From positions 384,001 to 448,000 of the forward strand of contig CAWKFG010000001.1 of assembly GCA_963848965.1 (NCBI GenBank): DNA of 64,000 nucleotides, given 5' to 3'. Under the pieces are notes generated by a model. That model was not told where the DNA came from. It saw only the letters and a program-made list of their open reading frames with translations, and ran no database searches. How positions within the stretch are numbered: position 1 is the stretch's first letter; every line of letters begins with the position of its first letter. Position numbers and translations under genes: made by a program. Below, piece by piece: positions 931-33,282 of this stretch. Origin of the DNA: an uncultured bacterium (lineage in GTDB: Bacteria > Babelota > Babeliae > Babelales > Babelaceae).

Positions 931-1809
931 TTGAACGTAAAGAAAGCGAAACTTGAGGGAGATTCTGCTATTAATAATCTTGCACGAGATTTACAGAACA
1001 CTTTTCCTGGTACAAGAGGATTTTCAAGTCGTAATCTCCGCTACATGGCTAATTTATATGCTACTTACTCTCAGAGTCAAAAATTGCAATCAATGATTGC
1101 AAAAATTAGTTGGACACATAATATAATTATTTTAGATCGTTGTTCTGATATGCTAGAGAGGGAGTTCTATATCAAAATGGCTGCTAAATATGGGTGGACC
1201 TCTCGGATGCTTATGAATTATATAGATAATCAGACTTATGAAAAAACATTACTTAGTGAAACCAATTTTGATAAAAGTCTTCCAGAAAATATCAAAAATA
1301 GGGTAAAACTGGCTCTAAAAGATGATTATACGTTCAGTTTTTTAGAACTTGGAGAAAAGTTTACAGAGTATCAGTTAGAAAAGGCTATATTAAGTAAAGT
1401 TGAACGATTTCTTAACGAGATGGTGGAATCTTTACATTTGTTAGTAGCCAATATCGGCTTGAAGTGGGGATTAAGAGTACTTTATAGATCTACTTCTCTA
1501 TCATCGTTTTTTAAGATGCCTTGTAGCTATAGAGCTGAAAATAGGTCCTTTTATACCTGAGTATATGGGCAAGATGCAATTTTATCTTTCGGTATTAGAT
1601 GATACCGTAAGGATTGACGGAGAAAATCCTTCCATTGGCATTATCCTCTGTAAGGATAAAAATAAGACTATAATAGAATAGCCTTAAAAGATGCAAGCAA
1701 GCCAATTGGGGTAGCAACTTATCAAATGGTTAAGAAGTTACCTCAACAATTAAAAGATCAACTTCCCTCTGTTGAGCAAATTGAGCAACTCCTTGATGAG
1801 TTAGATTAA
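931..1809 (+). pseudogene. DUF1016/YhcG PD-(D/E)XK nuclease family, frameshifted and 5'-truncated
   Basis: LARDLQNTFPGTRGFSSRNLRYM, ISWTHN, REFYIKMA..GW, KDDYTFSFL; C-terminal motifs (YMGKMQFYL, ENPSIGIILCK, KPIGVATY) continue in other frames to TAA 1809. Confidence 0.85.
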
Positions 1810-2058
1810 TATTACCAGTTACTGTGAATGAAATTGCTAAACTTGGAGCTTTAGCAGCATATTGCAATAGTATTCCTTATAATCTCTTCTATCTAAATAT
1901 TGTTGTTGTTATAGCGGTAAGCATAATATTTTTCTAAAAAATAGTTTTAAGCAAACCAAGTATTGATTGAATGCTCTCAAGGCTAAAGTTGAATTCTATA
2001 ATTTCGTTCCTGAATGCGTCAACGATTGTGTTAAAAGTCAACAAGTTTAAAAATTATT

Positions 2059-3003
2059 TTAAGTAGTTTGCCATTGTTCTCCTTTTCGAACCATAACATT
2101 TAAAATACCAATAACCTTTCGCATAACAGCAATGAGAGCAACTTTAGCTTTTTTACCAACAGTGCGTAGCCGTTTATAAAAGCATTTAAGTGCAGGATTA
2201 AATCTGATAACTGCTAATGTAGCCATATAAAGGATATCACGGGTAGCTTGTCTACCACCGCTAATTGATGCAGTGCCTTTAGATCCACCACTTTGCTTAA
2301 TAAAAGGTGCTACACCTAGAATAGCGGCTATTTGCTTATTACCGACTTTGCCAAGCTCAGGCATTTCTGCAAGCAAAGAGCAGGCAGTGACTTTGCCGAT
2401 ACCAGGCATAGACTCAATAATATGGCATTTTTTATTAAGAGATTCATTGTCTTGGATCAGCTGTTCAATTTCTTGTTCAACTTCCTGTAACTGTCTTTCC
2501 ATAAAGGAGATATGAGCTTCAAGAAAATTTTTACAGTAAACTTGTTGAGGATGCTGCAATTTATTGGTTTCTTGAACAATGTTTCGGACAATGTTAGTCC
2601 TGAATTTGACGAGAGCACAGAGCTTTAGCTCGTCTTGAGAACGAATAATCTCATGATATTTAGGCCGTTTTTGAGAAGCAAAGAGAGCAATCATTTGAGC
2701 ATCAATTTTATCAGTTTTAGCCTTAATGCCTTCAGAGATGATGAAGGCTCTAATGCGTCTAGGCTGAACTTGCCAAGCATTATAATTATTAATGCTAAGT
2801 TCTTGCTTGAGAAGGAAATCGTAACCACCAGAAGACTCAAAAACGATCTGTACGACAGTATAAGCAGAAAGTACTTGAATGAGTTTATTGATTCCAGCTT
2901 GTGAGTTAGCAACTCTAAAGTCTTTAGCCACAGGATGTAAGTGAATATCTAAAAATTTTTTAGAGATATCGATGCCGACAAAAATATGTGATATAGTATT
3001 CAT
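2059..3003 (-). CDS. IS110 family DEDD recombinase/transposase
   Basis: GIDISK, FESSG, KTDKIDA, MPGIG, QSG motifs. Confidence 0.95.
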   Translation of the reverse strand: MNTISHIFVGIDISKKFLDIHLHPVAKDFRVANSQAGINKLIQVLSAYTVVQIVFESSGGYDFLLKQELSINNYNAWQVQPRRIRAFIISEGIKAKTDKIDAQMIALFASQKRPKYHEIIRSQDELKLCALVKFRTNIVRNIVQETNKLQHPQQVYCKNFLEAHISFMERQLQEVEQEIEQLIQDNESLNKKCHIIESMPGIGKVTACSLLAEMPELGKVGNKQIAAILGVAPFIKQSGGSKGTASISGGRQATRDILYMATLAVIRFNPALKCFYKRLRTVGKKAKVALIAVMRKVIGILNVMVRKGEQWQTT

Positions 3004-3165
3004 ATAGTGCCTCGGTTTTGTATACGGGATCCTTGTCCCACTCGATTGTTCGAGCTGTACTATATATGCTAGCAGGTCCTAAGTTGACACTCGGTTTTAA
3101 AAACCAGGCAGGGGAACAGGCTCCTGCTAGCTTTCCTAAACTTAACGTCTCAAATTTAGGAACAT
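3004..3165 (-). ncRNA. IS110 bridge RNA (predicted), copy 1
   Basis: 5' hairpin (3133-3162); target loop closed by GCTAGCAGG/CCTGCTAGC; donor loop; guides match the donor and target junctions. Confidence 0.85.
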
Positions 3166-3264
3166 AATTTCAATATACAAAGTAGGGGGCACCAACTTAA
3201 GTAAAGCTTATTTCCCATTTATATAGATTTTTAACTAAACATGTAATAGGTTAAGGAGCACGTA

Positions 3265-3591
3265 TTAGTTTTTCTTAAAAGTAGAGTGATTTGGTTGGTT
3301 TAATTGAGGTAAGCGTGCAAGAGGTTTATGTGATTGTTTTGCAATCCATAGATCATAGCGATATTGGAGATTAAGCCAGAATTCAGATGATGTACCAAAG
3401 ACGTCAGCAAAATCAAGCGCAATCGCTTCAGTGATTCTTCTTTTTTTGTTAACTATTTCACTTATTTTTGATTGAGTCCAAGTTCCTCCTAAATGCTTTG
3501 CTAATTGTTCTTGTGAAAGGTTAAGAGGCTTAAGAAATTCTTCTTGAAGAATTTCTCCTGGATGAGTAGGTATTCTTTTTGAGGGAATCAT
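3265..3591 (-). CDS. higA: HigA family antitoxin (XRE HTH)
   Basis: PTHPGEILQEEFL, RRIT..A, FWLNLQ. Confidence 0.92.
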   Translation of the reverse strand: MIPSKRIPTHPGEILQEEFLKPLNLSQEQLAKHLGGTWTQSKISEIVNKKRRITEAIALDFADVFGTSSEFWLNLQYRYDLWIAKQSHKPLARLPQLNQPNHSTFKKN

Positions 3592-3606
3592 CTTTATTTC
3601 CTTAAT

Positions 3607-3900
3607 TTAATGATAATCTATAATTTCAACATTTTCTGCTCCATCTGCGCTCCAGGAAAATATGATTCGATATTGATCATTAATTCGAATACTATAGTAT
3701 CCTTGTAATGTACCTTTAAGAGCCTCTAAACGGTTTGCTGGAGGCACTTTAAGATCATTAAGAGTATATGCAGCATCAATCATATCGAGTTTTCTACATG
3801 CAATAGAATGTAGTAAAGGATCAAGCTTTTTTCTTGCTTGTTTAGAATTGATACCATTAAAAATATCTTTTGTACCTTCATCAGCAAATGATCGAATCAT
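3607..3900 (-). CDS. higB: HigB/RelE-like toxin
   Basis: MIRSF, DLKVPPANRLEALKG, YSIRINDQYRI, EIIDYH; upstream of higA. Confidence 0.93.
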   Translation of the reverse strand: MIRSFADEGTKDIFNGINSKQARKKLDPLLHSIACRKLDMIDAAYTLNDLKVPPANRLEALKGTLQGYYSIRINDQYRIIFSWSADGAENVEIIDYH

Positions 3901-3981
3901 TACTCTGCCTCTGTAATTTTATATCATTATATAATATATCAATATATAAATCAAGTTTAGGATCAACAATAAGTTTTTTGG

Positions 3982-4015
3982 TTCTGAATGTGTCAACGAT
4001 TGTGTTAAAAGTCAA
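3982..4015 (-). mobile_element. orphan IS110 right-end/target junction
   Basis: TTCTGAATGTGTC-AA-CGATTGTGTTAAAAGTCAA matches 2008-2041 apart from two flank substitutions. Confidence 0.8.
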
Positions 4016-4028
4016 AGAATTTTACTTT

Positions 4029-4466
4029 TTATAAAAGAGTAAGTTCTGAATGTGTAATGCCTTGAGAAATATATCCAATAGCTTGCCTGTGACCAGACAT
4101 AAGCGAGGAAGGTAGTTGATCAGAGAAAAACCAATCAAGCCTTGGATGCTTGGTAATCTCTTTATTGATAGGATCTCCTTGCCAAGAAGTGATAACAAAA
4201 AAGAAGGCTATACAATCTTGGGGCAAGCGTCTTATATGCATAACATGAGCAAAGGTAATATGTTGAGGGTCAACTACAATATTGATCTCTTCTTCTAACT
4301 CTCGCCTTATCGCATTCTGAAGCGATTCATGTTCTTGAGGCTTACCTCCAGGTAGACAGTAAGTATTATCCATAAAGCCTGTACTTTTTCGTTCAAGTAA
4401 CAGAATTTGATTACTTTTACTATCAGGTTTCTTCTTTATAACGAGAGCATCAACATAGACAATCAT
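4029..4466 (-). CDS. NUDIX hydrolase
   Basis: Nudix box PGGKPQEHESLQNAIRRELEEE. Confidence 0.9.
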   Translation of the reverse strand: MIVYVDALVIKKKPDSKSNQILLLERKSTGFMDNTYCLPGGKPQEHESLQNAIRRELEEEINIVVDPQHITFAHVMHIRRLPQDCIAFFFVITSWQGDPINKEITKHPRLDWFFSDQLPSSLMSGHRQAIGYISQGITHSELTLL

Positions 4467-4554
4467 ATTTGATAAGCCTCATTTTTCTCTTAACCCACTG
4501 CAAGAAGCCTACTTCAATATTACTATAGAAAGGGAGTTTATAAAAGGAATGGTT

Positions 4555-4773
4555 ATGGTTAAAAAACAAAAACCATCAAAAAACGCTCCTATTGGGACTT
4601 TGGCCAAAGATCTTCCAAATGAGTTTCCGGGTATAGAGGGATTGTCAAGTCATAATATTTTAGAATAAGAGCTTTTTATAGGGCTTATTAAAGAGTGCCA
4701 CAGCCTGTGGCACAATTAGAAGAGCTCCCAGTTTTTAGGACTCCGTGAGGCCATAATGCATTATTATGGATAA
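4555..4773 (+). pseudogene. DUF1016/YhcG N-terminal relic
   Basis: LAKDLPNEFPGIEGLSSHNI.RIRAFYRAY*RVPQPVAQL..LPVFRTP*GHN with stops and a frameshift. Confidence 0.75.
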
Positions 4774-4896
4774 TATAGCGGGAACTAGAGCTTCTACAGC
4801 TGCTGACCCCTCATTCATTTAATCAGTACTTGTTGGCTTTCTGGTGTTTTCTCTCGTAAATACTGAGGATTTTTTTAACACCAAGATCTAGTAGAT

Positions 4897-5541
4897 ATGC
4901 CAATTTACAATTTTGAAACTGTGAAGTATTATCAAATAAAACGCTCTTTGTTGCTTTGGGAAAGGGATCATATGATTTTAACTGGTTTTAAAATTGCCAT
5001 TTTAATAACTAGTGGATTTCAGCAAATTGAGATGACAAGCCCACGAAAAGTTTTAAAAGATGCTGGTGCTATTGTTCACATTGTGTCTCCTGAAAAAGAT
5101 ACAGTTCAAGGTTGGGATTGTGATGTTCCAAAAGCATTAGAGAAATTTCCTGTAGATGTTAATTTGAATGACGCATCACCTGATAATTACGATGCTTTAT
5201 TGGTTCCAGGAGGTTATGGAAGTCCAGAAGAGCTACGGCTTAATAAGAAAGCTATAGCGTTTGTTAAAGCATTTGCACATAAGCCAATTGCAGCTATTTG
5301 TCATGGTCCTAGCTTACTTATTAATGCGCATCTGACAAAGAATAAAACGCTTACTTCCTATCCAGCAATTGAGCAAGATTTAATAAATGCTGGCGCTCAT
5401 TGGATTAATAAAGCTGTGGTCATCGATGATAATTTAATAACAAGCCGTTCACCAGAAGATATAGAAGTGTTTAATAAAGCTATTCTTGACGTATTTAGCA
5501 AAGTCAAAACGAGAAAAGTTAATAAGAGGCCTAAAGTGTAA
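4897..5541 (+). CDS. DJ-1/PfpI family type 1 glutamine amidotransferase-like protein (true start possibly later, at MILTG)
   Basis: GFQQIE, YDALLVPGG, AAICHGP, LITSRSP. Confidence 0.9.
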   Translation: MPIYNFETVKYYQIKRSLLLWERDHMILTGFKIAILITSGFQQIEMTSPRKVLKDAGAIVHIVSPEKDTVQGWDCDVPKALEKFPVDVNLNDASPDNYDALLVPGGYGSPEELRLNKKAIAFVKAFAHKPIAAICHGPSLLINAHLTKNKTLTSYPAIEQDLINAGAHWINKAVVIDDNLITSRSPEDIEVFNKAILDVFSKVKTRKVNKRPKV

Positions 5542-5652
5542 AGTGGATAAAGACTCTATGAAACGAGAGAACTTTGCTACTAACACAAAGTAGGAGCCAA
5601 TTGTAGGTTATTCTAGGACTGTAAAATTGATAGCGTTTCTCTAGTACAGATT

Positions 5653-6030
5653 TTAAGGAACAAAGAGTTTGGGCTCTCCTGTCTCTTCTAAATCGTCTCC
5701 TATATCTATATCGGCTAGACATATATGTTGTGTATCCTGACTTGCTGGAATTTTAGATTTTATAGCTAAAAGTTGTTGCTTTCCCAGAGCGATTTCTTTT
5801 GCATAATAAGATGCCACTTCCTCTAGTAAAGATTGAGGACGAGATAATGACTTGTACTTTACATCCGGTAAATCAAAATCCAAAGGCTTTTTAGGAAATG
5901 ATAGATTAATAGAAGCAATAATAGTGCTTTGGTCGGTTATTACTTTTGAAGATTCTAGGGCCTGTTCCATGCTATAGAGTTTTGCGTTTACTATTATAGC
6001 TAAGACTATAAAACCAATATTTTTATACAT
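5653..6030 (-). CDS. exported hypothetical protein (signal + ME; BC-box-like PQSLLEE)
   Basis: signal peptide ending LYS-MEQ. Confidence 0.55.
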   Translation of the reverse strand: MYKNIGFIVLAIIVNAKLYSMEQALESSKVITDQSTIIASINLSFPKKPLDFDLPDVKYKSLSRPQSLLEEVASYYAKEIALGKQQLLAIKSKIPASQDTQHICLADIDIGDDLEETGEPKLFVP

Positions 6031-6263
6031 ATTCTAGCACCTTTAAGAAGTATTAGATTAACTTTATAAATTATATACTAATAGAAACTCGTAATAGGTC
6101 AAGCTCAAAGTTTTTATAGGAGATGCCCGATTAATACGGCTTTATAGAAAAATGAAGCTTCAAACAATGGTTTATTGACAAAGTGTATTTTGTGGGTTAA
6201 TTTAGTGGAGGTACTTATGAATTCGTAAGATTTATAACATTAGTTAGACTGGGGATCCTTGCT

Positions 6264-8438
6264 ATGAATTATTTATGTATGATATATGCTTTAACTGCCC
6301 TCATAAGCTTTTCCTTAAATGGGATGCAGCAAGAAGTAAAAACACATCCAAATGAAACTTATAAGAAAAATTTGGAGTTACAGCAACAATTAATAAGAAG
6401 CTCTTTAAAGAGAGCCATTGATTCTTTTGCTCATAGCCAAGTAACTTCAGTACCTCAAGTATCTCTCTACACAACTCAACCAACACAATGGTTATTAGCT
6501 CCGATGCAGAAGGCTATAGTTGATGCTCAAATGGATATGCTAAAAAATATAGCTCCGGATAAAAACGAATTAACTGTTGTCTGTGCAGGAAATAGTAACT
6601 CTTGTACAAGTGCTATTTATGAAAAACTTGCAGTTAAAAAGCGTGTTATCAGCACAACAACAGAGAAAGCTTCTCCAGAATCAGTAGATATTATACTAGC
6701 ACCGTATACACTGTATAGTGAAATGGAATCTCTATTTAAAGCTTCCGAAGATCTTCTGTCTTCAGAAGATCCTTTACCCTTAGAAAGTCATCCGCTATTT
6801 AATTATTTTAGTAAGTTAAGCAAAGATGGGGTCTTTATTGTCACATTGCATAGCGGACCTAACGTGCAGGATTTTACTAACTTACTACTTAATAAGCATG
6901 AGCTTGATCTTACGCAGGTGCATCAAGCTGTACAGCCAAAGTTAAAAATATTTAATTCAATAGAGACATTTCTTCGTTGTTTAGACATATTTAAAAAATA
7001 TTATACACAAAAGACTGGTAAAGTTATTACCTGTGACTTATCATTCTCTTTGCCTCATATACCTCTCGATGTATTTTGTAACGAATATGTAAAACAATAT
7101 CCAGAACTTGGACATATGAATAATGAGCAGCTTGAGAAGTTTATACGTCTTCTTTCAGTTTTTGCTGTTGGCAATGATATCGTAGACCTTGCTATTACTT
7201 TAAAAATGTCGATAAAAGAATCAAGTGATCAGTCACAGCGTTCTTTCAAGCCTATACCAGGTATAATGAGTCTGCTTAAGAGTGAACCTATTGTGTCTCA
7301 AGGTAAGTCTAATGAGATTTCGCTAGGGCAACAGAATCTTGATAAACAGATTCAGAATTTAGAGGGTAGTGAACTATCTATGGTCCATATTAAGGGTGCA
7401 GACGGGGCAGCACAATTAGAAGCCATAAAGTCCGTTATTGGTCGTCCAAATCTTAACGTTGTTGATTTAGGAGGGGGACGTGGTGAAACTAATGCTCTTA
7501 TGAAAGCGCTTAAGGACTCTGGCTCAAACGTTCATCTATTAAATATTGAGCCGCATAAACCCTTTAAACCATTATATCTTGATGCACAAAATGCTGTTGG
7601 TATAACAGATGTAGAGGTATGGGAGCAAACTGCTCAACAACTATCAGCGCCTGAGGTAGTAAAACACTTTAAAGATAATAAGTAGATATACTCTATGCTT
7701 CGCATTCATTTTACTTTCTGTTAGGCGATTTATACAAAGCATCATTAGAGTATGCTCATGGATCTTCTACAACGCCATTAGCACAATCCATTATGGAAAT
7801 ATTTTGACATGCTTCATGAAAAGGGAATATTAGTCATTACTATGCAAAGTGGTGCTGGTGCCCGTCTATTTAGAAATGCGTTACTTGGCAATCACGGACT
7901 TAACCAACCAGCGCCAAATGTTGCTGACGAAACAGTTCCACTTTTAAGTAGTTTTGGTAATATGGCAACCTTATTACGTTCCTTTGAACTTTTTGCAGAT
8001 CATTACCAAAAAGAAACTGGTAAAGTAATTACTATTAAAATGCACTACTCTGTTGCTAATGTGCCACTTGGTAGCTATACCATAGGACAAAATCCAGAAA
8101 CCAAAGGTTATATTCTTCATGATGAGAGTAAGGAGCAAAATATGCTTGCATTAAGGATGCTTGATTTCTACGGTAACTGGCGTGAGTTACAAACACTTGC
8201 AAATGTAACTCCGGAAAAGGTTGCTGCTATGGATGTTGAAATGCAGAGGAAATTAGGGCTGGAAAACGCTACGCAGGAAGCAATTATAGCTAAACGAGAA
8301 AATGCTCGTAAAATGCAAGAAACATTCCTTCATATTTTGAGAGTATTTGCTCTAGCAAGAAAGAATATGCAGCACCCTAATATTACTCTAGAATTTAGTA
8401 TTGAACCACAACAAAAGAATACTGTTTTATCTAAGTAA
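6264..8438 (+). pseudogene. exported tandem class I SAM methyltransferase-like protein split by two frameshifts
   Basis: ORFs 6264-7685 and 7809-8438; VVDLGGGRG; intervening frame VDILYASHSFY; the two halves share HPL..YF/GV..VT..SG/TGKVIT motifs. Confidence 0.7.
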
Positions 8439-8611
8439 AATGGAAGTTCCTTAAAAGAATGAGTTAAACTGCCGCTCAAGATGAACCTAGAGAGTTTGAG
8501 AGAGCTGAATTTCTAGGTTCAAAAAAAAGTTATGCGGGTGTAAGCAGTAATTAGTTTTGATAGAAAAGTAAAGCTTGTTGTATATCTTTAAGGTCAACTT
8601 CAAACAAGATA

Positions 8612-8712
8612 CTTTTGTTCCTAAAATAGTGCTACTTGATAGCACCATAAGTCAAGCAGGGGGCGCCACCCTTCGCTAAAGCTTCGACTGGCAGGCCAGT
8701 TCTTTAAAGCAT
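8612..8712 (+). repeat. unoccupied IS110 target-type repeat with hairpin GTGCTA-N5-TAGCAC and a 30-bp palindromic insert
   Basis: TTTTGTTCC...GTC-AA-GCAGGGGGCGCCA resembles the joined IS flanks; partial copy at 23815-23857. Confidence 0.7.
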
Positions 8713-8874
8713 GATATAAATATTTGGTCATCAGAAACAAAATACTGCTCTATCTCATTACCTAAGACTTTCTTATAATTACTTATTAAATAATAATTTA
8801 TAATATATTAAATTATAGTTAATTATATAAATATGATATAAATACTTAAAAATATAATTAAAGGAATTATTCTT

Positions 8875-9637
8875 ATGAGACTATATATAGCTAGTATATT
8901 TTTAATATTAAGTGGTTCTTGCTTTGGAATGGCGTTAGAGTCTACGAAAGAGGAAAGTGGAAATGTAAATGCTCTTTTACGAGTTTTCCCAAGCGAGCTT
9001 CTTGAAGGACTAGAACCGTATAGAAGATATGCTCAATTTGCCGCTGTTCCTATCGATATTATACAATCAGCAAGTACACTTGAAGAGGCAATTGAAAGCT
9101 TAAAAAAACTTGAAAATATCTCGACCGGAGTACGCAAAATATTTTAGTGACCCAAGAATTATTGATATACTTATTAATACTTTAACTATTAAATTTAAAA
9201 AACGACAAAAAGACTTAATTGATAAACTTTATGAAAAAGAATTTAATCAAGAAGGGTTAGACAGTTGGCTGAATAAAATATTACCCATACAGCAGGAGCT
9301 GCTTGAGGCAGCTTCAGCAGGGAATTTAGAAAAGGTAAAGCAACTTCTTGCAAAAGATAAATATAATATTAATGCTTTAGATTTGGCTAACTATACTCCC
9401 CTTTTCAATGCCGTTGAGCAGGAGCATATTCCTATAGTTCAATATTTACTTGAACACGGAGCTGATATTCATGCTCAAGCTGTAACAGGTAATACGCCTT
9501 TACATCGTGCAATTATTAGAGATAATCCTCAACTAGTAAGATTATTACTTGAGTATGGTGCTGATCCTTGGATTGAGGATATGTTTGGTGCAACAGCCTT
9601 GGATAAAGCTCTACAAAAAAGAATCCAGAAATTTTGA
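8875..9637 (+). pseudogene. exported ankyrin repeat protein with F-box-like N-terminal motif, frameshifted near 9110
   Basis: two overlapping ORFs; TPLFNAV, TPLHRA; paralogous to 52089 and 56609. Confidence 0.8.
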
Positions 9638-9761
9638 AGCTTTTTAAAGAAGTTACCGTTGAATCTAAAGTGCACAAAAGGTCGAGGTACTACTCTTTTT
9701 ATTAATCTATATCCATTGTATTAAGAAGATAAAAATGGGATGTATCTAAAAAATTAAAATC

Positions 9762-9788
9762 AACTAGGAAGTTAAATACTTCCTAGTT
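9762..9788. terminator. hairpin between convergent genes
   Basis: AACTAGGAAGT-N5-ACTTCCTAGTT. Confidence 0.6.
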
Positions 9789-9834
9789 CTTTCACGTTAA
9801 ATGTGGTTAATGCAATGTAACCTTTAATTCTTTC

Positions 9835-10087
9835 CTAATTATTGGTCACACGGCTAAGAGTTATTGAGGTTATAGAATAATTGTTTGGATCAAGTAATCG
9901 CTTAAGAGCGCTTCTACTAGTACCTAGATGCTTAGCCATCTCTGTTTGGCTTATACGATTTACCATCTCTTGTTGTAGTTCATAGGTTATTATTTGCTTT
10001 ATAGCTGCAGCTTCAGCTTTTTCTAGGATACCTTCTTTTTTAAGAAAGAGTATCGAAATCGGATTCTATATGCTTATTATTTTCCAT
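9835..10087 (-). pseudogene. XRE/HTH antitoxin-like, frameshifted
   Basis: MENNKHIESDFD..FLKKEGILEKAEAAAIKQII...SQTEMAKHLGTSRSALKRLLDP. Confidence 0.7.
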
Positions 10088-10117
10088 TGCTCTCTCTTAT
10101 CTAAATGTATAGGGAAG

Positions 10118-10435
10118 TTAGCGGTTATTCTTGGTGGTCAAGGGTATAACTTCTCCATCTTTTTGAGCTTGTAAGGTATAACCTAAGCCATTAAATATTT
10201 TAATAAGACTAGCAGCGCTTATTCTTCTATTTCCAGAACGAATTCCTTGAATGATAGTAGGAGATACTCCAGCTTCTTCAGCTAACCTTCTTACTGTAAT
10301 TCCATCTCTATGCATAGCCGCTAAGATGAGCTCTGATATTAAGAGATTTTCGTAATCTCGTTCAAATTCCTTTAACTCGCGTGGGCTTAATTTTTCAATA
10401 AGCTCATCGTAGGTAGATTTCATTTTTTTAGTCAT
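10118..10435 (-). CDS. XRE family HTH protein (antitoxin-like)
   Basis: TVRRLAEEAGVSPTIIQGIRSG. Confidence 0.8.
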   Translation of the reverse strand: MTKKMKSTYDELIEKLSPRELKEFERDYENLLISELILAAMHRDGITVRRLAEEAGVSPTIIQGIRSGNRRISAASLIKIFNGLGYTLQAQKDGEVIPLTTKNNR

Positions 10436-10459
10436 TGTAATATCCTTTATTATATCTTT

Positions 10460-10831
10460 TTACATAATCATCGGAATATTAAAAATAGGCAGGTCATATA
10501 ATTGTCGCACAGCCTGTGCGAATTTTTCATAAGCTAGATAAAACGCCTGCATTCTAAACATATTGGCTCTAGAGAACCCTGCAACCCCAGGGAATTCAGC
10601 TTGTAAATCCTTGCCTAGACTTTCTATAACACTTTCTCCCCAACTGTTTTTTGCCTGTTTTTCAGTTAATATCTTTCCAATATACCAATAGAGCTTAAGT
10701 AACTCTTTGTTTGCAGAAAGAATTGCTTTGATTTGAGCTTCTCTTACTTGCTTTTTAAGATCAGCTAATACTTCAGCATATTCTCTTAACTCTATGCCCT
10801 TTGTGTCTTTTAGATTGACTTTTTTTATCAT
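10460..10831 (-). pseudogene. DUF1016/YhcG N-terminal fragment
   Basis: ANKELLKLYWYIG, WG..VIE.L..DLQ.EFPG..GFS..N; ends at FNIP. Confidence 0.85.
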
Positions 10832-10834
10832 GGG

Positions 10835-11038
10835 CTAGCCTTTATTCGTTTGTGTCGCGGCATGGATAAGTTTTGCTAGAGTTTTAATTGTAGGATTCGA
10901 TTTATCAGACATAGCAAGGTAGATAGTTTGCCTATGTAGTCCAGTTTGTTTTGATAATAATGTTTTGTTTTTAGACTTTATGTAGTTACTTAATATATCT
11001 ATTACTTCTCTTGGATTGTTATTTTCTAGCGCATTCAA
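10835..11038 (-). CDS. addiction-module antidote-like HTH protein (possibly truncated)
   Basis: LSKQTGLHRQTIY.AMS.KSNPTIKTL; palindrome TGTATATT-AA-AATATACA at 11112-11129 upstream. Confidence 0.7.
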   Translation of the reverse strand: MNALENNNPREVIDILSNYIKSKNKTLLSKQTGLHRQTIYLAMSDKSNPTIKTLAKLIHAATQTNKG

Positions 11039-11543
11039 GATTGCAAGCCGTAATCTGATTTTTCTTTTCTTTCCATAAGCTTCTCCGATTCATTAAAAGG
11101 TACATAAATAGTGTATATTAAAATATACAAAGGTGCAAGCACTTTATTTAGAGAAGACCTCAATGGCTTATTTGTAAGACCCGTACTACTCAGATCATGA
11201 GCTAAAACTAGAGTTTAGTTAGTTTTAGTGATTTAAACTTTGTTATATGTTTGCGTAGTGTGTTAAAAGGGCTTTGGTTTAAGGGTAACTTTATTTTATT
11301 TAGATCAGCTATGAGGCGATACAAGCCCCCTTTATTAGAATGTGCAAACATAGTTCTCAGTTCCCATATGGTTACTACCTCAAGCGCTTATTTTAAACCA
11401 TATTAAGATGTGCTTTGGATTAAGATCAAGGTTGTTTAAGGAAGTTTTCTAGCCGGTGAAAAAGCGTAAGCTTTTGTAAATCTCAGATTTCTTTGTTAAA
11501 GTTTAGTTGAAAGCTGTTCGACAAGTTTACAAAGGAGTAAGCT

Positions 11544-12066
11544 ATGTATAGAAGTTTTTGTTCTACTCTAATGAGTATTGCATTATTTTTCTCTCTAGTA
11601 AATGCGCATGATGTGGAGCAAAGTACCTGCCATCATGACGAAGGAAACATCTTTATTATTCTTAATAAACCGTTGCACCGCTATCTTCAAGCACACTACA
11701 GCCATAAGTATGAAACAGCTAAAGAATTGTTAAAGCATATCCATACACTAGAGCTTATTATTCAAGAAAATACCTGCTTTTATTCTTTGTTTATTAAAGA
11801 TCTCTCTTCAAAATCTAAGATTATTATAAAAGGCAGAGAGCGATTGTTAGAATCTATTATCGGCCAAGGCATGATTGATAATACTATTATTAAGCTCTTC
11901 TTTTGTATATAAAGAGCGGTCATTGCAGTGTCACTTTAATAAACAGAAAAGAGTCGGTATTATTAAGCTTGATGAAAGGCAAGCTCAGAAGTTCTGTTAT
12001 CGTCTGTTAGCTCTTGCAGAAAGAACGGATAATCAACTTTATAAAAAGCTTTATCCTAACTTATAA
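11544..12066 (+). pseudogene. exported hypothetical protein, probably frameshifted
   Basis: signal peptide; overlapping ORFs 11544-11912 and 11875-12066. Confidence 0.45.
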
Positions 12067-12304
12067 GAGTATACATGTTTGTAAGCTAGTTTGCAGTTAA
12101 GTAGAGTCTCTGGATAATAAACCTGAGTTTAGAGTTGCTGTAGTGACTATATGTATTTAAAGTTATATAATGTTAGTATGTTGTGCACTAGAAAGTGCTC
12201 TTTCTGGCTTTTAGATTATATCTTTACGCATTGATGTGAGTGCGTTATAGTGAAAAGTTAAGCTCTGTAAATCAGGTAAATCCCAAATGATACGGAAGTT
12301 TTCG

Positions 12305-12540
12305 TTATAATTCATTATTATTTTCAGAAGAATTTTTTGCTGAATATAGATCTTTATATTTGTGTTTAGAAAGAAGCTCTATCATTTCTGTATAATCTTC
12401 ATTTAAAGCAATATCAAGAGGATTGAATTGCCATTTGTTGGTTCGAATAGTACCATCTGCACCATGCTCAAGTAGGAGCTGTGCTATTTTTATAGTGTTT
12501 TTTTCTGTGGCTAAATGCAAAGGAGTAACACCATAACTTC
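12305..12540 (-). pseudogene. ankyrin repeat 3' fragment
   Basis: GVTPLHLA..IAQLLLEHGAD..NPLDIA. Confidence 0.7.
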
Positions 12541-12708
12541 TTTAGGAATCTCCAGCAAAAAAAAGAAGCTACTCTTTAATGTTTCTCTAAAAATTATTAA
12601 GTAAATAAAATATTGATTGAATGCTATCAAGGCTAAAATTTAGCTCTATAATTTTGTTCCTGAATGCGTCAACGATTGTGTTAAAAGTCAACAAGTTTAA
12701 AAATTATT

Positions 12709-13653
12709 TTAAGTAGTTTGCCATTGTTCTCCTTTTCGAACCATAACATTTAAAATACCAATAACCTTTCGCATAACAGCAATGAGAGCAACTTTAGCTT
12801 TTTTACCAACAGTGCGTAGCCGTTTATAAAAGCATTTAAGTGCAGGATTAAATCTGATAACTGCTAATGTAGCCATATAAAGGATATCACGGGTAGCTTG
12901 TCTACCACCGCTAATTGATGCAGTGCCTTTAGATCCACCACTTTGCTTAATAAAAGGTGCTACACCTAGAATAGCGGCTATTTGCTTATTACCGACTTTG
13001 CCAAGCTCAGGCATTTCTGCAAGCAAAGAGCAGGCAGTGACTTTGCCGATACCAGGCATAGACTCAATAATATGGCATTTTTTATTAAGAGATTCATTGT
13101 CTTGGATCAGCTGTTCAATTTCTTGTTCAACTTCCTGTAACTGTCTTTCCATAAAGGAGATATGAGCTTCAAGAAAATTTTTACAGTAAACTTGTTGAGG
13201 ATGCTGCAATTTATTGGTTTCTTGAACAATGTTTCGGACAATGTTAGTCCTGAATTTGACGAGAGCACAGAGCTTTAGCTCGTCTTGAGAACGAATAATC
13301 TCATGATATTTAGGCCGTTTTTGAGAAGCAAAGAGAGCAATCATTTGAGCATCAATTTTATCAGTTTTAGCCTTAATGCCTTCAGAGATGATGAAGGCTC
13401 TAATGCGTCTAGGCTGAACTTGCCAAGCATTATAATTATTAATGCTAAGTTCTTGCTTGAGAAGGAAATCGTAACCACCAGAAGACTCAAAAACGATCTG
13501 TACGACAGTATAAGCAGAAAGTACTTGAATGAGTTTATTGATTCCAGCTTGTGAGTTAGCAACTCTAAAGTCTTTAGCCACAGGATGTAAGTGAATATCT
13601 AAAAATTTTTTAGAGATATCGATGCCGACAAAAATATGTGATATAGTATTCAT
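12709..13653 (-). CDS. IS110 family DEDD recombinase/transposase
   Basis: protein identical to 2059-3003. Confidence 0.95.
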   Translation of the reverse strand: MNTISHIFVGIDISKKFLDIHLHPVAKDFRVANSQAGINKLIQVLSAYTVVQIVFESSGGYDFLLKQELSINNYNAWQVQPRRIRAFIISEGIKAKTDKIDAQMIALFASQKRPKYHEIIRSQDELKLCALVKFRTNIVRNIVQETNKLQHPQQVYCKNFLEAHISFMERQLQEVEQEIEQLIQDNESLNKKCHIIESMPGIGKVTACSLLAEMPELGKVGNKQIAAILGVAPFIKQSGGSKGTASISGGRQATRDILYMATLAVIRFNPALKCFYKRLRTVGKKAKVALIAVMRKVIGILNVMVRKGEQWQTT

Positions 13654-13815
13654 ATAGTGCCTCGGTTTTGTATACGGGATCCTTGTCCCACTCGATTGTT
13701 CGAGCTGTACTATATATGCTAGCAGGTCCTAAGTTGACACTCGGTTTTAAAAACCAGGCAGGGGAACAGGCTCCTGCTAGCTTTCCTAAACTTAACGTCT
13801 CAAATTTAGGAACAT
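13654..13815 (-). ncRNA. IS110 bridge RNA (predicted), copy 2
   Basis: same as 3004-3165. Confidence 0.85.
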
Positions 13816-13940
13816 AATTTCAATATACAAAGTAGGGGGTGCCACGTTCTTAAAGTGCTTGTTTTGCCTATTCGTAAGTTTTTTTTGTTAAATCGTAAAA
13901 CATAACGCTGCCGTAAAAGAAGTCCAACTACTCTTAGTTT

Positions 13941-17500: not shown

Positions 17501-18429
17501 GAGCCTATCCGTAAATTCATAATTTGTTAAAAATAATGATAGCTACGGCAAAATAAACCATAGCCATATAGTTTAAAGCGTATTTTTCATAACGAACAAA
17601 CAAGCGCCTAAACCGATTGAGCCATGAATGCGTAGGTTCAATGAACCAGCGTTGATAACCTTCTGGTACACCATAAACTTTATTTTTAGCTTTTCTTTTA
17701 TTTTTCATTATTTTAGGTACATAGCTGTAATGCAGCAAGTAGGCTCTTATTTGCGCTGAATCATAAGCTGCATCTAAACTTATAATTTTGCTATAAGGCA
17801 TGGATATATGCTTAGGAATGGATAATAAGGTATCCAAAAATAGCTGAGAATCGTGCTGATTAGCGCTACCTAACGCACAACCGATAACTATACCGTTTTT
17901 ATCAGTTAATATGCTTCGTTTTGTTCCTAATTTTCTCCTATCTACTGGGCTCTTGCCTGTTTTCTCTGAACCCAAGGGCGCTTTAATATAAACACAATCA
18001 GCAGCTTGAGTTTCTAGACTAAGTCCGTGAATTTTATCATATTGGTCAAGTTCAGCATACCATAAATATTTAAAGAACTCGACAGACCTTAATTTTTGAA
18101 ACAGTTTATGGACAGCAGAGTACGATCCAAAGCATCTAGGCAATGCATTCCATTGTATACCTGTCCTTAACAGATAATAGATACCATTTATTGCTCTTTT
18201 CATATCCATTGAGGGTCTTCCCCGCTTTGATTTTTCGCTTATTTTTGGTATTATTTTTTCTATATCTTTCCATAAATTTGGAGTTATAAGAAACTTCTTG
18301 TTTATGCATACTTCATAACAATTTTTTGTATGACACATGTGTAAATCTCCTTCTTGATCGTTGATCGCGATTCTTTAGAAGGAGATTTTATTATATTTTC
18401 AACCTTTTTTCCATTTTAGAGATAGGCTC
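17501..18429 (-). mobile_element. IS5 family element (IS1031-like) with TTA target duplication
   Basis: terminal IRs GAGCCTATC / GATAGGCTC; TTA at 17498-17500 and 18430-18432. Confidence 0.9.
17517..18338 (-). CDS. IS5 family transposase
   Basis: GRP, LRTGIQWNALP, GKSPVDRRKLGTKRS, NQHD, DAAYDS, RWFIE..HSWLNRFRRL.VRYEK. Confidence 0.93.
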   Translation of the reverse strand: MCHTKNCYEVCINKKFLITPNLWKDIEKIIPKISEKSKRGRPSMDMKRAINGIYYLLRTGIQWNALPRCFGSYSAVHKLFQKLRSVEFFKYLWYAELDQYDKIHGLSLETQAADCVYIKAPLGSEKTGKSPVDRRKLGTKRSILTDKNGIVIGCALGSANQHDSQLFLDTLLSIPKHISMPYSKIISLDAAYDSAQIRAYLLHYSYVPKIMKNKRKAKNKVYGVPEGYQRWFIEPTHSWLNRFRRLFVRYEKYALNYMAMVYFAVAIIIFNKL

Positions 18430-18790: not shown

Positions 18791-18910
18791 AACTTAAGAG
18801 CGCTCTTGCAACTGCCTTGCGCTTGGAAGGTGCTTGCCTTGCCTGTCTGCCGTAACTTTAGTGAAGGCTGGATATCTTCCCTATAAATAAGGGAGGCCTA
18901 CGGCGATTTT
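18791..18910 (+). repeat. structured intergenic repeat, copy A
   Basis: homologous to 20062-20172 (AACTTAAGA..ACTGCCTTGCGC..GGCTGGATATC..GGAGG..TACGGC). Confidence 0.7.
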
Positions 18911-18935
18911 TACTAAAAGCTTTTATGAGGATAGT

Positions 18936-20061: not shown

Positions 20062-20172
20062 AACTTAAGATAGAGACTTCATAACTGCCTTGCGCCTGAC
20101 TGTGTCCGCCAAAGCCTTTAGGCGAAGGCTGGATATCTCCCATATTAATAAAGGAGGATTACGGCAAATTTT
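20062..20172 (+). repeat. structured intergenic repeat, copy B
   Basis: homologous to 18791-18910. Confidence 0.7.
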
Positions 20173-23814: not shown

Positions 23815-23857
23815 TTTTGTTCAGAAAATAGTGCTACTTCATAGCACCATGCGTCCA
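23815..23857 (+). repeat. partial IS110 target-type repeat
   Basis: TTTTGTTCAGAAAATAGTGCTACTTCATAGCACCATGCGTC vs 8613-8653 and the IS flank ATGCGTC. Confidence 0.7.
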
Positions 23858-24175
23858 AGAAGATTTAAATTTATTCTAAGCAGATAGCCATTGTTCATCT
23901 TTGCGAATCATAACATTTAAAACACTAGGATGTGCTAATACTAAGCTAATCAATAATATTAACGCCAATTCGAGCTAAGGACTAGATAAAAAAGGCCCAC
24001 TACAGTATTCTTTACTTTAGATGAAGATTGATGTGTCTTAATAGGCTAGTTTTCGCGCTTACTGGGGTTTTATGAAACGAGAGAACTTTGCTATTAATAC
24101 AAAATGGGAACCAATTTTTTTGCTAATTTAACGTAATTATTTTGGGTTGGGTCAATATAACCAAAGAGGGAACGG

Positions 24176-32817: not shown

Positions 32818-33282
32818 GTGTTAAATGCAAAGGAGCAATTTAAATCAATCGAGGATGGTATCATTACTTTCGCTCTAGCGGATTTAGCATACCTTGAAGT
32901 AGCACTGCACCTCTTCTTTAGTGATGGCGCTGTTCCAGAAATAAGCGCACTTATGTTAGGTAAAATGGAAGTAACTGCTGCTGAAGGTTTCCAAGAATGT
33001 GTAAACTGTAACTTACAGAGATTACCTTCTTCAAGTAAAGAAGATTTAGATGAAGAATGTCCTTTCATTCTACAGCCTAAAATTGCATCATTGAACCTAC
33101 AAAATAGCCTTCAAGTTCCTGCTATCTCCGACTCTCGTTGCTACAATACAGGATGCCAGCAAGCGGCAAAGAATACTTGTACTCGTTGTAGAAAAGCTCG
33201 TTATTGCAGCAAAGAATGCCAAATAAAGATTGGACAGCAAAACATAAAGCAGAATGTAAATCAGCTCATACGTAAGTCTTGA
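32818..33282 (+). pseudogene. 3' fragment of a zf-MYND protein paralogous to 46970
   Basis: ADLAYLE.AL.LFFS.G..P; C.NTGC...CTRCRKARYCSKECQ, then frameshift to DW..KHKAEC. Confidence 0.8.

What the first reader, a model, noticed from the sequence alone, without database searches (positions are those of the whole stretch)
8612..8712. IS110 target is a dispersed repeat ending in a tRNA-3'-like motif (possible att-type junctions)
Seen: both IS copies sit in homologous but diverged flanks. The left flank (~60 bp) is TATTGATTGAATGCT.TCAAGGCTAAA...GTTCCTGAATGCGTC; the right flanks are GTAGGGGGCACCA and GTAGGGGGTGCCA. An empty homolog lies here (GTC-AA-GCAGGGGGCGCCA, an exact match to the left guide). 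A half copy lies at 23815-23857 with the same GTGCTA-N5-TAGCAC hairpin. All three complete sites end in NCCA in the same register, like tRNA acceptor 3' ends (e.g. GCAGGGGACACCA of tRNA-Arg CCU). Inference: these may be junctions left by repeated integration at a tRNA, delimiting cassettes, with the IS guide programmed against them, analogous to IS1111-attC targeting.
Basis: partly seen in the sequence, partly recalled or inferred. Interest (0 to 1): 0.75.

Follow-up and report, generated by a model that had tools for sequence, protein, structure and literature searches.

The report
IS110 targets serine-integrase att junctions
The repeat this insertion sequence homes to is the junction left where small mobile islands joined the chromosome at tRNA genes, carried in by a serine integrase whose own gene is cut at the tRNA's CCA end, so one mobile element is RNA-guided to the docking site of another.

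Summary
Both IS110 copies in the window, and a third on another contig, sit in diverged copies of one repeat. An unoccupied copy lies at 8574-8726.

The repeat is not REP-like or attC-like, and it is clustered rather than dispersed. Read on the opposite strand, it encodes the last ~33 residues of a large serine recombinase (LSR). The "NCCA" is the Trp codon at which that gene is cut on integration into a tRNA 3' end.

The genome's only LSR lies 5.4 kb left of the window and overlaps the 3' end of tRNA-Arg(TCG). Its reading frame stops inside the tRNA, three codons after that Trp. All five tail junctions in the window lie downstream of that tRNA on its strand. Similar arrays follow tRNA-Arg(TCT), tRNA-Glu and tRNA-Asp, and they separate small cargo units, many of them toxin-antitoxin modules.

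The IS has a predicted bridge RNA. Its target loop matches 7 nt to the left and 5-6 of 7 nt to the right of a TT core that lies inside the recombinase's inferred half-site.

This scan has already noted the LSR family on other DNA. The IS targeting and the cassette arrays are the new points here.

The parts
1937..2020 (-). Remnant of the LSR C-terminal tail coding sequence (P' arm of the att junction), left flank of IS copy 1
   Evidence: Alignment of flanks; nhmmer hit at window 1963-2022, E 5e-13; tail profile hit on the minus-strand ORF
2021..3180 (-). IS110-family element, copy 1, with the AA/TT core dinucleotide at both ends
   Evidence: Identical to copy 2 and to C4 450985-452144; boundaries read from the three copies
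2059..3003 (-). IS110 transposase (bridge recombinase), 314 aa
   Evidence: Pfam DEDD_Tnp_IS110 E 3e-19 and Transposase_20 E 2.5e-19
3004..3178 (-). Long left end of the IS with the predicted bridge RNA (target loop, then donor loop)
   Evidence: Fold -57.1 kcal/mol, z -4.28, 0 of 200 shuffles as good; guide matches to target and to both IS ends; guide logic taken from passages of PMC11208160
3181..3194 (+). Core of the att junction right of IS copy 1, ending in CCA (Trp codon on the minus strand)
3951..4022 (-). Weak tail remnant (3951-3994) joined to a ~28-nt solo right-end fragment of the IS (3995-4022)
   Evidence: Repeat family D6; nhmmer only E 3.5; sequence printed
8574..8655 (-). Tail remnant of the unoccupied site. 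It carries a 22-nt palindromic insertion (about 8624-8646) that breaks the reading frame
8654..8655 (.). Core dinucleotide of the unused IS110 target (exact 7-nt left-guide match beside it)
   Evidence: the exact 14-mer occurs only here and in the C3 duplicate
8656..8668 (+). Core ending in CCA. Its last 6 nt are identical to the 3' end of tRNA-Arg(TCG), which lies 15.5 kb upstream on the same strand
8666..8726 (+). Arm resembling the conserved trailer found just 3' of 11 of 34 tRNA/tmRNA genes (B-type or P-type arm, unresolved)
12613..12670 (-). Tail remnant, left flank of IS copy 2
12671..13830 (-). IS110-family element, copy 2
13832..13844 (+). Core right of IS copy 2, ending in CCA
23815..23855 (-). 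Tail remnant with the same palindromic insertion as 8574-8655; no core or right arm remains
   Evidence: (D11, 88%)
23856..23925 (-). Fragment of the 3' end of a diverged IS110 copy (81% identity), joined at the same point of the tail
   Evidence: (D3)

Best explanation
The IS110 target is the far junction (attR-type, or attP-like) of small integrative islands moved by a family of large serine recombinases (LSRs) that integrate at the 3' end of tRNA genes.

In this family the attachment site lies inside the recombinase gene, around a conserved Trp codon about 33 codons before the stop. That TGG is the tRNA's CCA read on the other strand. Integration therefore fuses the gene body to the antisense tRNA, which gives a premature stop. 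It also carries the ~100-nt tail-coding segment, still attached to the few-nucleotide core, to the other end of the island.

Repeated integration followed by decay has left same-strand arrays of such junctions downstream of tRNA-Arg(TCG) (including this window), tRNA-Arg(TCT), tRNA-Glu and tRNA-Asp. The junctions separate small cargo units.

The IS110 element encodes a bridge RNA in its long left end. The target loop of that RNA pairs with the sequence on both sides of a TT dinucleotide 11-12 nt downstream of the Trp codon. This position falls inside the right arm of the inverted repeat that the recombinase is expected to bind. The IS has inserted at three such junctions, each time in the orientation of the recombinase remnant. 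One perfect target (8654-8655) is still empty.

Shown: all the sequence relationships. Inferred: the crossover position, recombinase and IS activity, and the order of events.
For: (1) Coding signature. Across 12 copies (3 of them joined in a script from IS flanks), pairwise differences by codon position are 678, 421 and 721. Arg and Leu codons vary synonymously and the ~85-nt core has almost no indels.

(2) Tail identity. A profile of 10 tail peptides (A1) hits 76 clusters at E<=1e-3 among 1.84 billion representatives. Most hits are short ORFs. The longer ones are C-terminal parts of serine recombinases that end in this tail; one also has a Resolvase N-terminus and one a zinc-ribbon recombinase domain.

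(3) The resident LSR. The one LSR in the genome (486 aa, C1 377109-378569, minus strand) overlaps tRNA-Arg(TCG) (C1 377048-377123, plus strand) and stops three codons after the Trp, inside the tRNA.

(4) Family-wide pattern. Of the 120 best of 2159 homologues, 78 stop 2-3 residues after that Trp. By eye, about 27 read on into antisense-tRNA-like peptide. One (516 aa) carries the A1-type tail (E 5.6e-11), and a few carry a variant tail. A locus in relative G001 also reads from the LSR body straight into the tail.

(5) Independent example. In genus G006, tRNA-Arg(TCG) is overlapped by an LSR remnant, followed by AbiEi/AbiEii and then a tail ORF. The AbiE pair is 70.8% identical over 1411 nt to a cassette lying between tail junctions in this genome.

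(6) Position. 19 of 21 junction copies lie 2.3-30.7 kb downstream of a same-strand tRNA. Four of five clusters begin and lie within 21 kb of one, where a random position has a 12.5% chance.

(7) Inverted repeat. The LSR's own 3' arm and the window-type tail arm form an 8-9-bp inverted repeat around a 10-nt spacer that contains the TGG.

(8) IS guides. A 7-nt exact left target guide and a right guide complementary at 5-6 of 7 positions sit on the two strands of one internal loop. A 7-nt guide matches the right IS end and an 8-nt guide matches the left IS end.
Against: No tRNA carries any of the 13-mers; the best match is 11 of 13. The cores beside IS copies 1 and 2 each differ from tRNA-Arg(TCG) by one transition inside the 6-nt core. 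Either they decayed or they formed at another tRNA-Arg.

The arm on the other side of the Trp codon resembles a trailer found 3' of 11 of 34 tRNA/tmRNA genes. I cannot tell whether it is native tRNA flank (B arm) or element DNA (P arm). This leaves open how an LSR builds tandem arrays, since canonical LSRs recombine only attP with attB (recalled).

The left target guide mismatches the first core base. Copies 1 and 2 carry one more T at the left junction than copy 3, so the core or target is ambiguous by 1 nt.

No Rfam family matched the IS non-coding end. Only one of the 120 closest LSR homologues shows the intact A1-type tail.
Confidence: 0.85

Rival explanations
1. One reading: att junctions of islands integrated by a tyrosine integrase into a tRNA, with the NCCA motif copied from that tRNA's acceptor end.
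For: The junctions lie downstream of tRNA genes on the same strand. The last 6 nt of the empty site equal the end of tRNA-Arg(TCG).
Against: The genome holds only two tyrosine recombinases, of 308 and 312 aa, neither near the arrays. The repeat's longer part is homologous to the C-terminus of serine recombinases. The resident LSR gene physically overlaps the tRNA. No tRNA matches beyond 11 of 13.
Confidence: 0.04
2. The junctions are working recombination sites of LSR-less gene cassettes. These cassettes are captured one after another at the tRNA-proximal site and moved in trans by a full LSR, as in an integron. They are not just decayed scars of complete elements.
For: The arrays have short spacing, 1.3-4 kb here and 0.7-0.9 kb in genus G021. 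Cargo is one or two genes per unit, many of them toxin-antitoxin modules. Both arms of the junction are conserved. A frame-broken tail variant with the 22-nt palindrome occurs at two places, so junctions propagate after they lose coding capacity. A ~170-nt arm is duplicated together with the core beside tRNA-Glu.
Against: No excised or empty forms were seen. LSRs are not known to recombine such hybrid sites without a directionality factor (recalled). The arrays could equally arise by deletion of LSR genes from tandem complete elements, or by segmental duplication.
Confidence: 0.25
3. A REP-like or MITE-like extragenic repeat, or integron attC sites, unrelated to any integrase tail. The IS would target it as IS621 targets REP elements.
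For: IS110-family elements are known to target REP and attC sites (passages of PMC11208160 and PMC11187229). The repeats are intergenic.
Against: The repeats have no significant single-strand fold: six folds gave z from -1.5 to +0.9. There is codon periodicity and homology to the LSR tail. There are only ~20 copies, clustered behind tRNAs. No integron integrase is present.
Confidence: 0.03

Closest known systems
IS1111-attC group (e.g. ISKpn4, ISPst6) and IS4321/IS5075
   Same: These are DEDD-transposase IS elements that insert at one fixed point and orientation in the recombination site or terminal repeat of another mobile system: integron attC sites or Tn21-family inverted repeats (passages and reference list of PMC11187229). 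The element here likewise homes to the att site of another mobile element.
   Different: The element here is of the IS110 type, with a long left end (175 nt), a short right end (36 nt) and the guide RNA upstream of the gene. Its target is a serine-integrase att half-site that is also coding sequence, not a folded attC or a transposon end.
IS621 / ISPpu9 (IS110 group, bridge RNA, REP targets)
   Same: The domains are the same. The core dinucleotide is duplicated at both ends. A two-loop non-coding RNA sits in the left end, with left guides in the sense of the top strand and right guides complementary to it.
   Different: The core here is TT rather than CT, and the target is not a REP element. 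The transposase is at most 52% identical to any relative found. None of 101 relatives' loci has the tail beside it.
SSV-type 'suicidal' integrases of archaeal viruses and plasmids
   Same: The attachment site lies inside the integrase gene, so integration into a tRNA gene splits the gene (passages of PMC8371274).
   Different: Those are tyrosine recombinases. That review says they are found exclusively in archaea and are cut into two inactive halves. Here a bacterial serine recombinase loses only its last ~33 residues and keeps all three Pfam domains.
SCCmec composite islands (CcrAB serine recombinases at the 3' end of rlmH); recalled, not checked in a paper here
   Same: A large serine recombinase integrates at the 3' end of a conserved gene, and tandem arrays of elements are separated by short direct repeats.
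   Different: The SCCmec target is a protein-coding gene, the recombinase gene is not cut, and the junction repeats are ~15-18 bp rather than ~90-280 nt.
Sedentary chromosomal integrons
   Same: Both show same-orientation arrays of one- or two-gene cassettes, rich in toxin-antitoxin modules and separated by a conserved repeat.
   Different: There is no IntI tyrosine integrase, no attI, no hairpin-forming attC, and the array is anchored at a tRNA.

Membership tests
IS110 family, IS110 group (bridge-RNA recombinase elements) | N-terminal DEDD/RuvC-like domain (PF01548) plus C-terminal PF02371 domain | tested here: met
   E 3.1e-19 and 2.5e-19
IS110 family, IS110 group (bridge-RNA recombinase elements) | Long left end, short right end, no terminal inverted repeats, and the same short core at both junctions | tested here: met
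   The left end is 175 nt and the right end 36 nt. The AA/TT core is present at both ends of all three copies. The criterion comes from passages of PMC11208160. The left junction has a 1-nt ambiguity.
IS110 family, IS110 group (bridge-RNA recombinase elements) | Non-coding RNA with a target-binding loop and a donor-binding loop complementary to the target and to the joined IS ends | tested here: met
   The structure is stable (z -4.28). The left target guide matches 7 of 7, the right target guide 5-6 of 7, the left donor guide 7 of 7 and the right donor guide 8 of 8. No covariation test was possible, and no Rfam family matched.
IS110 family, IS110 group (bridge-RNA recombinase elements) | Circular intermediate and RNA-dependent insertion | not testable with these tools
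   No sequencing run was listed.
Large serine recombinase integrative element | Resolvase, Recombinase and zinc-ribbon recombinase domains in one protein | tested here: met
   (PF07508 E 8e-15, PF00239 E 4e-22, one 490-aa open frame); precomputed domains for the identical protein
Large serine recombinase integrative element | Island bounded by junctions that share a short identical core, and an attP that is an imperfect inverted repeat | tested here: met
   The 6-nt core is shared by the tRNA-Arg(TCG)/LSR junction and the junction at 8656-8668. Arms of 8-9 bp flank a 10-nt spacer. The attP is inferred from two separate halves; it was not observed intact in this genome.
Large serine recombinase integrative element | Recombination between attP and attB demonstrated | not testable with these tools
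   This needs an assay or reads showing the excised form.
   only two PF00589 matches, at C1 311 kb and 501 kb
   The last 6 nt are identical, and the best match over the 13-mer is 10-11 of 13.
Integron cassette array (attC) | IntI integrase and imperfect-palindrome attC that folds as single-stranded DNA | tested here: not met
REP / MITE | Palindromic extragenic unit scattered genome-wide | tested here: not met
   Fold z-scores range from -1.5 to +0.9. There are 16 nhmmer hits in five clusters.
SSV-type suicidal integrase | att site inside the integrase gene | tested here: met
SSV-type suicidal integrase | Tyrosine recombinase of the archaeal SSV/pTN3/pT26-2 clade | tested here: not met
   The protein is a serine recombinase in a bacterium. 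It works in a similar way but is not a member.

The most novel reading that the evidence does not exclude
Dependentiae, and perhaps other small-genome bacteria, may run an integron-like gene-capture platform built on a serine integrase. Cassettes without an integrase, each carrying a ~90-280-nt site (trailer arm, few-nucleotide core, integrase-tail arm), would be stacked at tRNA 3' ends and moved in trans by an integrase whose own C-terminal tail is exchanged at every event. This IS110 lineage would have evolved a bridge RNA that parasitises that platform's recombination site, disabling the junction it enters.
Probability: 0.25. Interest if true: 0.85.

Novelty: new variant of a known kind. 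Interest (0 to 1): 0.62.

Why it matters
This finding adds a third kind of natural target for RNA-guided IS110 recombinases, after REP elements and attC sites or transposon ends: the attachment site of a serine-integrase element. That sequence is held constant by two constraints at once, protein coding and integrase binding. It is therefore a dependable, multi-copy and harmless landing pad that travels between hosts.

The finding also shows a serine integrase family that targets tRNA ends and clips its own gene. The review read here credits own-gene disruption only to archaeal tyrosine integrases (passages of PMC8371274). In five library searches I found no description of this family, although earlier notes of this scan report it on other DNA.

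The tail-junction arrays of toxin-antitoxin and other cassettes give a concrete, testable system for asking how intracellular bacteria with tiny genomes keep a flexible gene pool.

Tried and rejected
- Pfam and NCBIfam scans of four tail peptides: 0 families, even at E 10.
- Rfam scan of the IS with flanks: only one chance-level match, E 0.18, far below its gathering score.
- Search for a tyrosine integrase: two PF00589 matches of 308 and 312 aa far from the arrays, which I take to be XerC/D by size alone.
- attC or REP idea: six single-strand folds were no better than shuffles.
- A full-length paralogue of the tail in this genome: none; every frame carrying the tail is under 60 aa, and tblastn with the LSR finds only the one gene plus tails.
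- Whether relatives of the IS also sit in tails: 0 of 101 loci at E<1 (21 from genomes, 80 from metagenomes), and the closest transposases are only 48-52% identical. The habit is specific to this lineage as far as these data go.
- Strain-level synteny: not possible, because all 30 relatives held are of other genera.
- Sequencing runs for excised or IS-free forms: none was listed.
- A pattern scan of relatives for the tRNA-trailer motif was not run. This leaves open whether that arm is native tRNA flank. Loci already held show, by eye, a similar arm before the Trp codon in five other genera and not in three.
- Supplementary files of the papers were not consulted.

Full report
THE OBSERVATION

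The window is C1:384001-448000 of a 1.73-Mb, 37% G+C genome in five contigs. Two copies of an IS110-family element lie at 2021-3180 and 12671-13830. A third identical copy lies on contig C4.

Their 314-aa protein has the two IS110 domains. The copies are identical to each other, whereas their ~60-nt left flanks are ~90% alike and their 13-nt right flanks differ at two positions. The flanks are therefore diverged copies of a target, not part of the IS.

The right-flank pattern occurs three times in the window against 0.04 expected. The third occurrence, at 8656-8668, belongs to an unoccupied copy. There is no tRNA gene in the window.

WHAT THE REPEAT IS

An nhmmer profile of the four sites, iterated three times, finds 16 copies at E<=1e-3. 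They are clustered:
- five in the window, all on the plus strand;
- nine or ten in C4 435-454 kb, all on the minus strand;
- others at C4 508-522 kb, at C4 217 kb and on C2.

The repeats are intergenic and separate one- or two-gene units.

Read on the strand opposite to the CCA, every copy is a short open frame with a conserved peptide: Trp, then a hydrophobic stretch, Phe-Arg-Asn, then an amphipathic stretch. The variation looks like that of coding DNA:
- Codon position 2 changes least: pairwise differences are 678, 421 and 721 for positions 1, 2 and 3.
- Arg and Leu codons vary synonymously.
- The core is almost free of indels.

Pfam and NCBIfam do not know the peptide. A profile of ten copies, searched against 1.84 billion representative proteins, gives 76 clusters at E<=1e-3. 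Most are short ORFs that end in the motif. The longer ones are C-terminal pieces of serine recombinases; one also has a Resolvase N-terminus and one a zinc-ribbon recombinase domain.

THE RESIDENT INTEGRASE

The genome has two tyrosine recombinases of 308 and 312 aa and exactly one large serine recombinase, at C1 377109-378569 on the minus strand, 5.4 kb left of the window. Its last 15 nt overlap the 3' end of tRNA-Arg(TCG) (C1 377048-377123, plus strand). The frame reads Trp-Arg-Ala-Arg-stop, and the Trp codon is the tRNA's CCA.

The family is large: 2159 proteins at E<=1e-20. Where sources give a name, it is Dependentiae, Babeliales or TM6. Among the 120 best homologues:
- 78 stop two or three residues after this Trp.
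- About 27, by eye, continue into the peptide that an antisense tRNA encodes.
- One 516-aa protein continues into a tail that matches my profile (E 5.6e-11).
- A few have a variant tail.

A contig-end locus of relative G001 likewise reads from the recombinase body straight into the tail.

The simplest reading is that the attachment site lies at this Trp codon. The free element then encodes the full protein, and integration at a tRNA end swaps the tail for a few tRNA-encoded residues and leaves the tail at the far end of the island.

The recombinase's own 3' arm and the window-type tail arm form an 8-9-bp inverted repeat around a 10-nt spacer that holds the TGG, as expected of a serine-integrase attP. 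That such sites are inverted repeats is recalled knowledge.

INDEPENDENT SUPPORT

In G006, a different genus of the same family, tRNA-Arg(TCG) is overlapped by a recombinase remnant whose frame runs into the tRNA. An AbiEi/AbiEii pair follows, and then a 52-aa ORF with the tail. This is a 3-kb island with both junctions. The AbiE pair is 70.8% identical over 1411 nt to a unit lying between two tail junctions in this genome's C4 array.

Tail matches occur in 12 of 31 genomes searched, counting this one. This genome has 18 and the others have 0-6. G021 has six tails within 4 kb, separating ParE, Gp49-type, PIN-like, antidote and RelB-type genes.

In this genome 19 of 21 copies lie 2.3-30.7 kb downstream of a same-strand tRNA: Arg-TCG, Arg-TCT, Glu or Asp. 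The C2 copies lie 32-37 kb downstream of the tmRNA gene. A random position has a 12.5% chance of lying within 21 kb of such a gene.

THE IS AND ITS GUIDE

The IS has a 175-nt left end and a 36-nt right end, which is the IS110-group layout (passages of PMC11208160). The left end folds stably (-57.1 kcal/mol, z -4.28).

- Target loop. In the first large stem, the 5' strand of an internal loop carries 7 nt identical to the target's top strand just left of the core. This match is exact at the empty site and at the C4 copy, with one mismatch at copies 1 and 2. The 3' strand of the same loop is complementary to the core plus the next bases at 5-6 of 7 positions.
- Donor loop. Further on, 7 nt equal the right IS end and 8 nt are complementary to the left IS end.

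This is the arrangement of left and right target and donor guides described for IS621.

The core is TT in the IS orientation. The left target guide mismatches the first core base, and copies 1 and 2 have one more T at the left junction than copy 3, so one nucleotide stays ambiguous.

The insertion point is 11-12 nt downstream of the Trp codon, inside the right arm of the inferred integrase inverted repeat. All three copies point the same way as the recombinase remnant. The exact 14-mer of the empty site occurs only there and in its duplicate on C3.

None of 101 loci of IS relatives (at most 52% identical) has a tail beside it.

WHAT REMAINS OPEN

On the other side of the Trp codon, the junctions carry an arm with one or two small hairpins. 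The same arm lies directly 3' of 11 of 34 tRNA/tmRNA genes here. Beside tRNA-Glu it extends to ~170 nt and is duplicated together with the core. By eye, a similar arm precedes the tail in five other genera and not in three.

- If the arm is native tRNA flank, the junctions are attR-type, and it is unclear how arrays grow.
- If the arm is element DNA, the junctions are attP-like sites of integrase-less cassettes, and the system resembles an integron.

The frame-broken tail with a 22-nt palindromic insertion occurs both at 8574-8655 and at 23815-23855. Junctions are therefore copied or moved after they stop coding. This favours the cassette reading slightly but does not prove it.

COMPARISON AND NOVELTY

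IS110/IS1111 elements that home to REP elements, attC sites or Tn21 ends are known. An IS110 whose bridge RNA is set to a serine-integrase attachment site is a new variant of that habit.

Integrases that split their own gene are described for archaeal tyrosine integrases, and the review read here calls them exclusive to archaea. Five library searches gave no paper on a tRNA-targeting serine integrase with its site in its own gene.

After I had reached this reading, a look-up showed that earlier notes of this scan report the same recombinase family at tRNA-Glu and tRNA-Asn ends in other genomes, also without a published description. Another note places this genome in the Dependentiae. The integrase story is therefore not new to the scan. 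The IS targeting, the tail-junction arrays and the shared trailer arm are what this window adds.

VERDICT

Confidence in the best explanation is 0.85 and interest is 0.62.

Noticed in passing
contig C3 (locus L002) versus window 3180-12639: The 9.5-kb contig C3 is a 99.5%-identical copy of the segment between the two IS copies, reported in the opposite orientation (25 mismatches, 14 gaps). It could be a second haplotype, a duplication, or an assembly product of the IS repeats.
   Followed up: partly
genome-wide; e.g. C4 219860-219921, C4 523786-523965, C1 347077-347108, C1 325363-325400: 11 of 34 tRNA/tmRNA genes are followed directly by a conserved trailer with one or two short hairpins. A loose form of the motif occurs 26 times in the genome, against 1-5 in shuffles, mostly at tRNA ends and att junctions.
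   Followed up: partly
L042 (G021:C8) about 8300-12300: Another genus has six integrase-tail junctions within 4 kb. They separate ParE, Gp49-like, PIN-like (DUF5615), HI1420-type antidote and ParE/RelB genes, with a Fic gene at one edge: a toxin-antitoxin cassette array without a tRNA in the 18 kb fetched.
   Followed up: partly
L001 9931-13109 (C4 443931-447109): A YhcG/DUF1016-like gene appears to be split by a 557-aa ORF that looks like a group II intron reverse transcriptase/maturase. I recognised this by eye and did not scan it. Other DUF1016 fragments lie at window 931-1560 and 10460-10831.
   Followed up: no
window 8624-8646 and 23826-23848: The same 22-nt palindromic insertion interrupts two integrase-tail remnants 15 kb apart. 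Its origin is unknown (small mobile hairpin or footprint).
   Followed up: partly
window 33130-33226 and 48257-48353: Two ORF ends share a 97-nt stretch (76% identity) that encodes a Cys-rich motif resembling a MYND-type zinc finger, a eukaryote-like domain. Recognised by eye only.
   Followed up: no
window 5557-5602 and 24071-24116; 18863-18911 and 20124-20172: Two further short intergenic repeat pairs (89% and 84% identity) of unknown meaning.
   Followed up: no
window 17517-18338: An IS4/IS5-type DDE transposase gene (DUF4096 + DDE_Tnp_1) shows that a second IS family is present in the region.
   Followed up: no
protein P0040 (representative library): A 121-aa protein joins the first ~50 residues of the serine recombinase directly to the last ~50, including the tail. 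It is an internal-deletion form of unknown significance.
   Followed up: no
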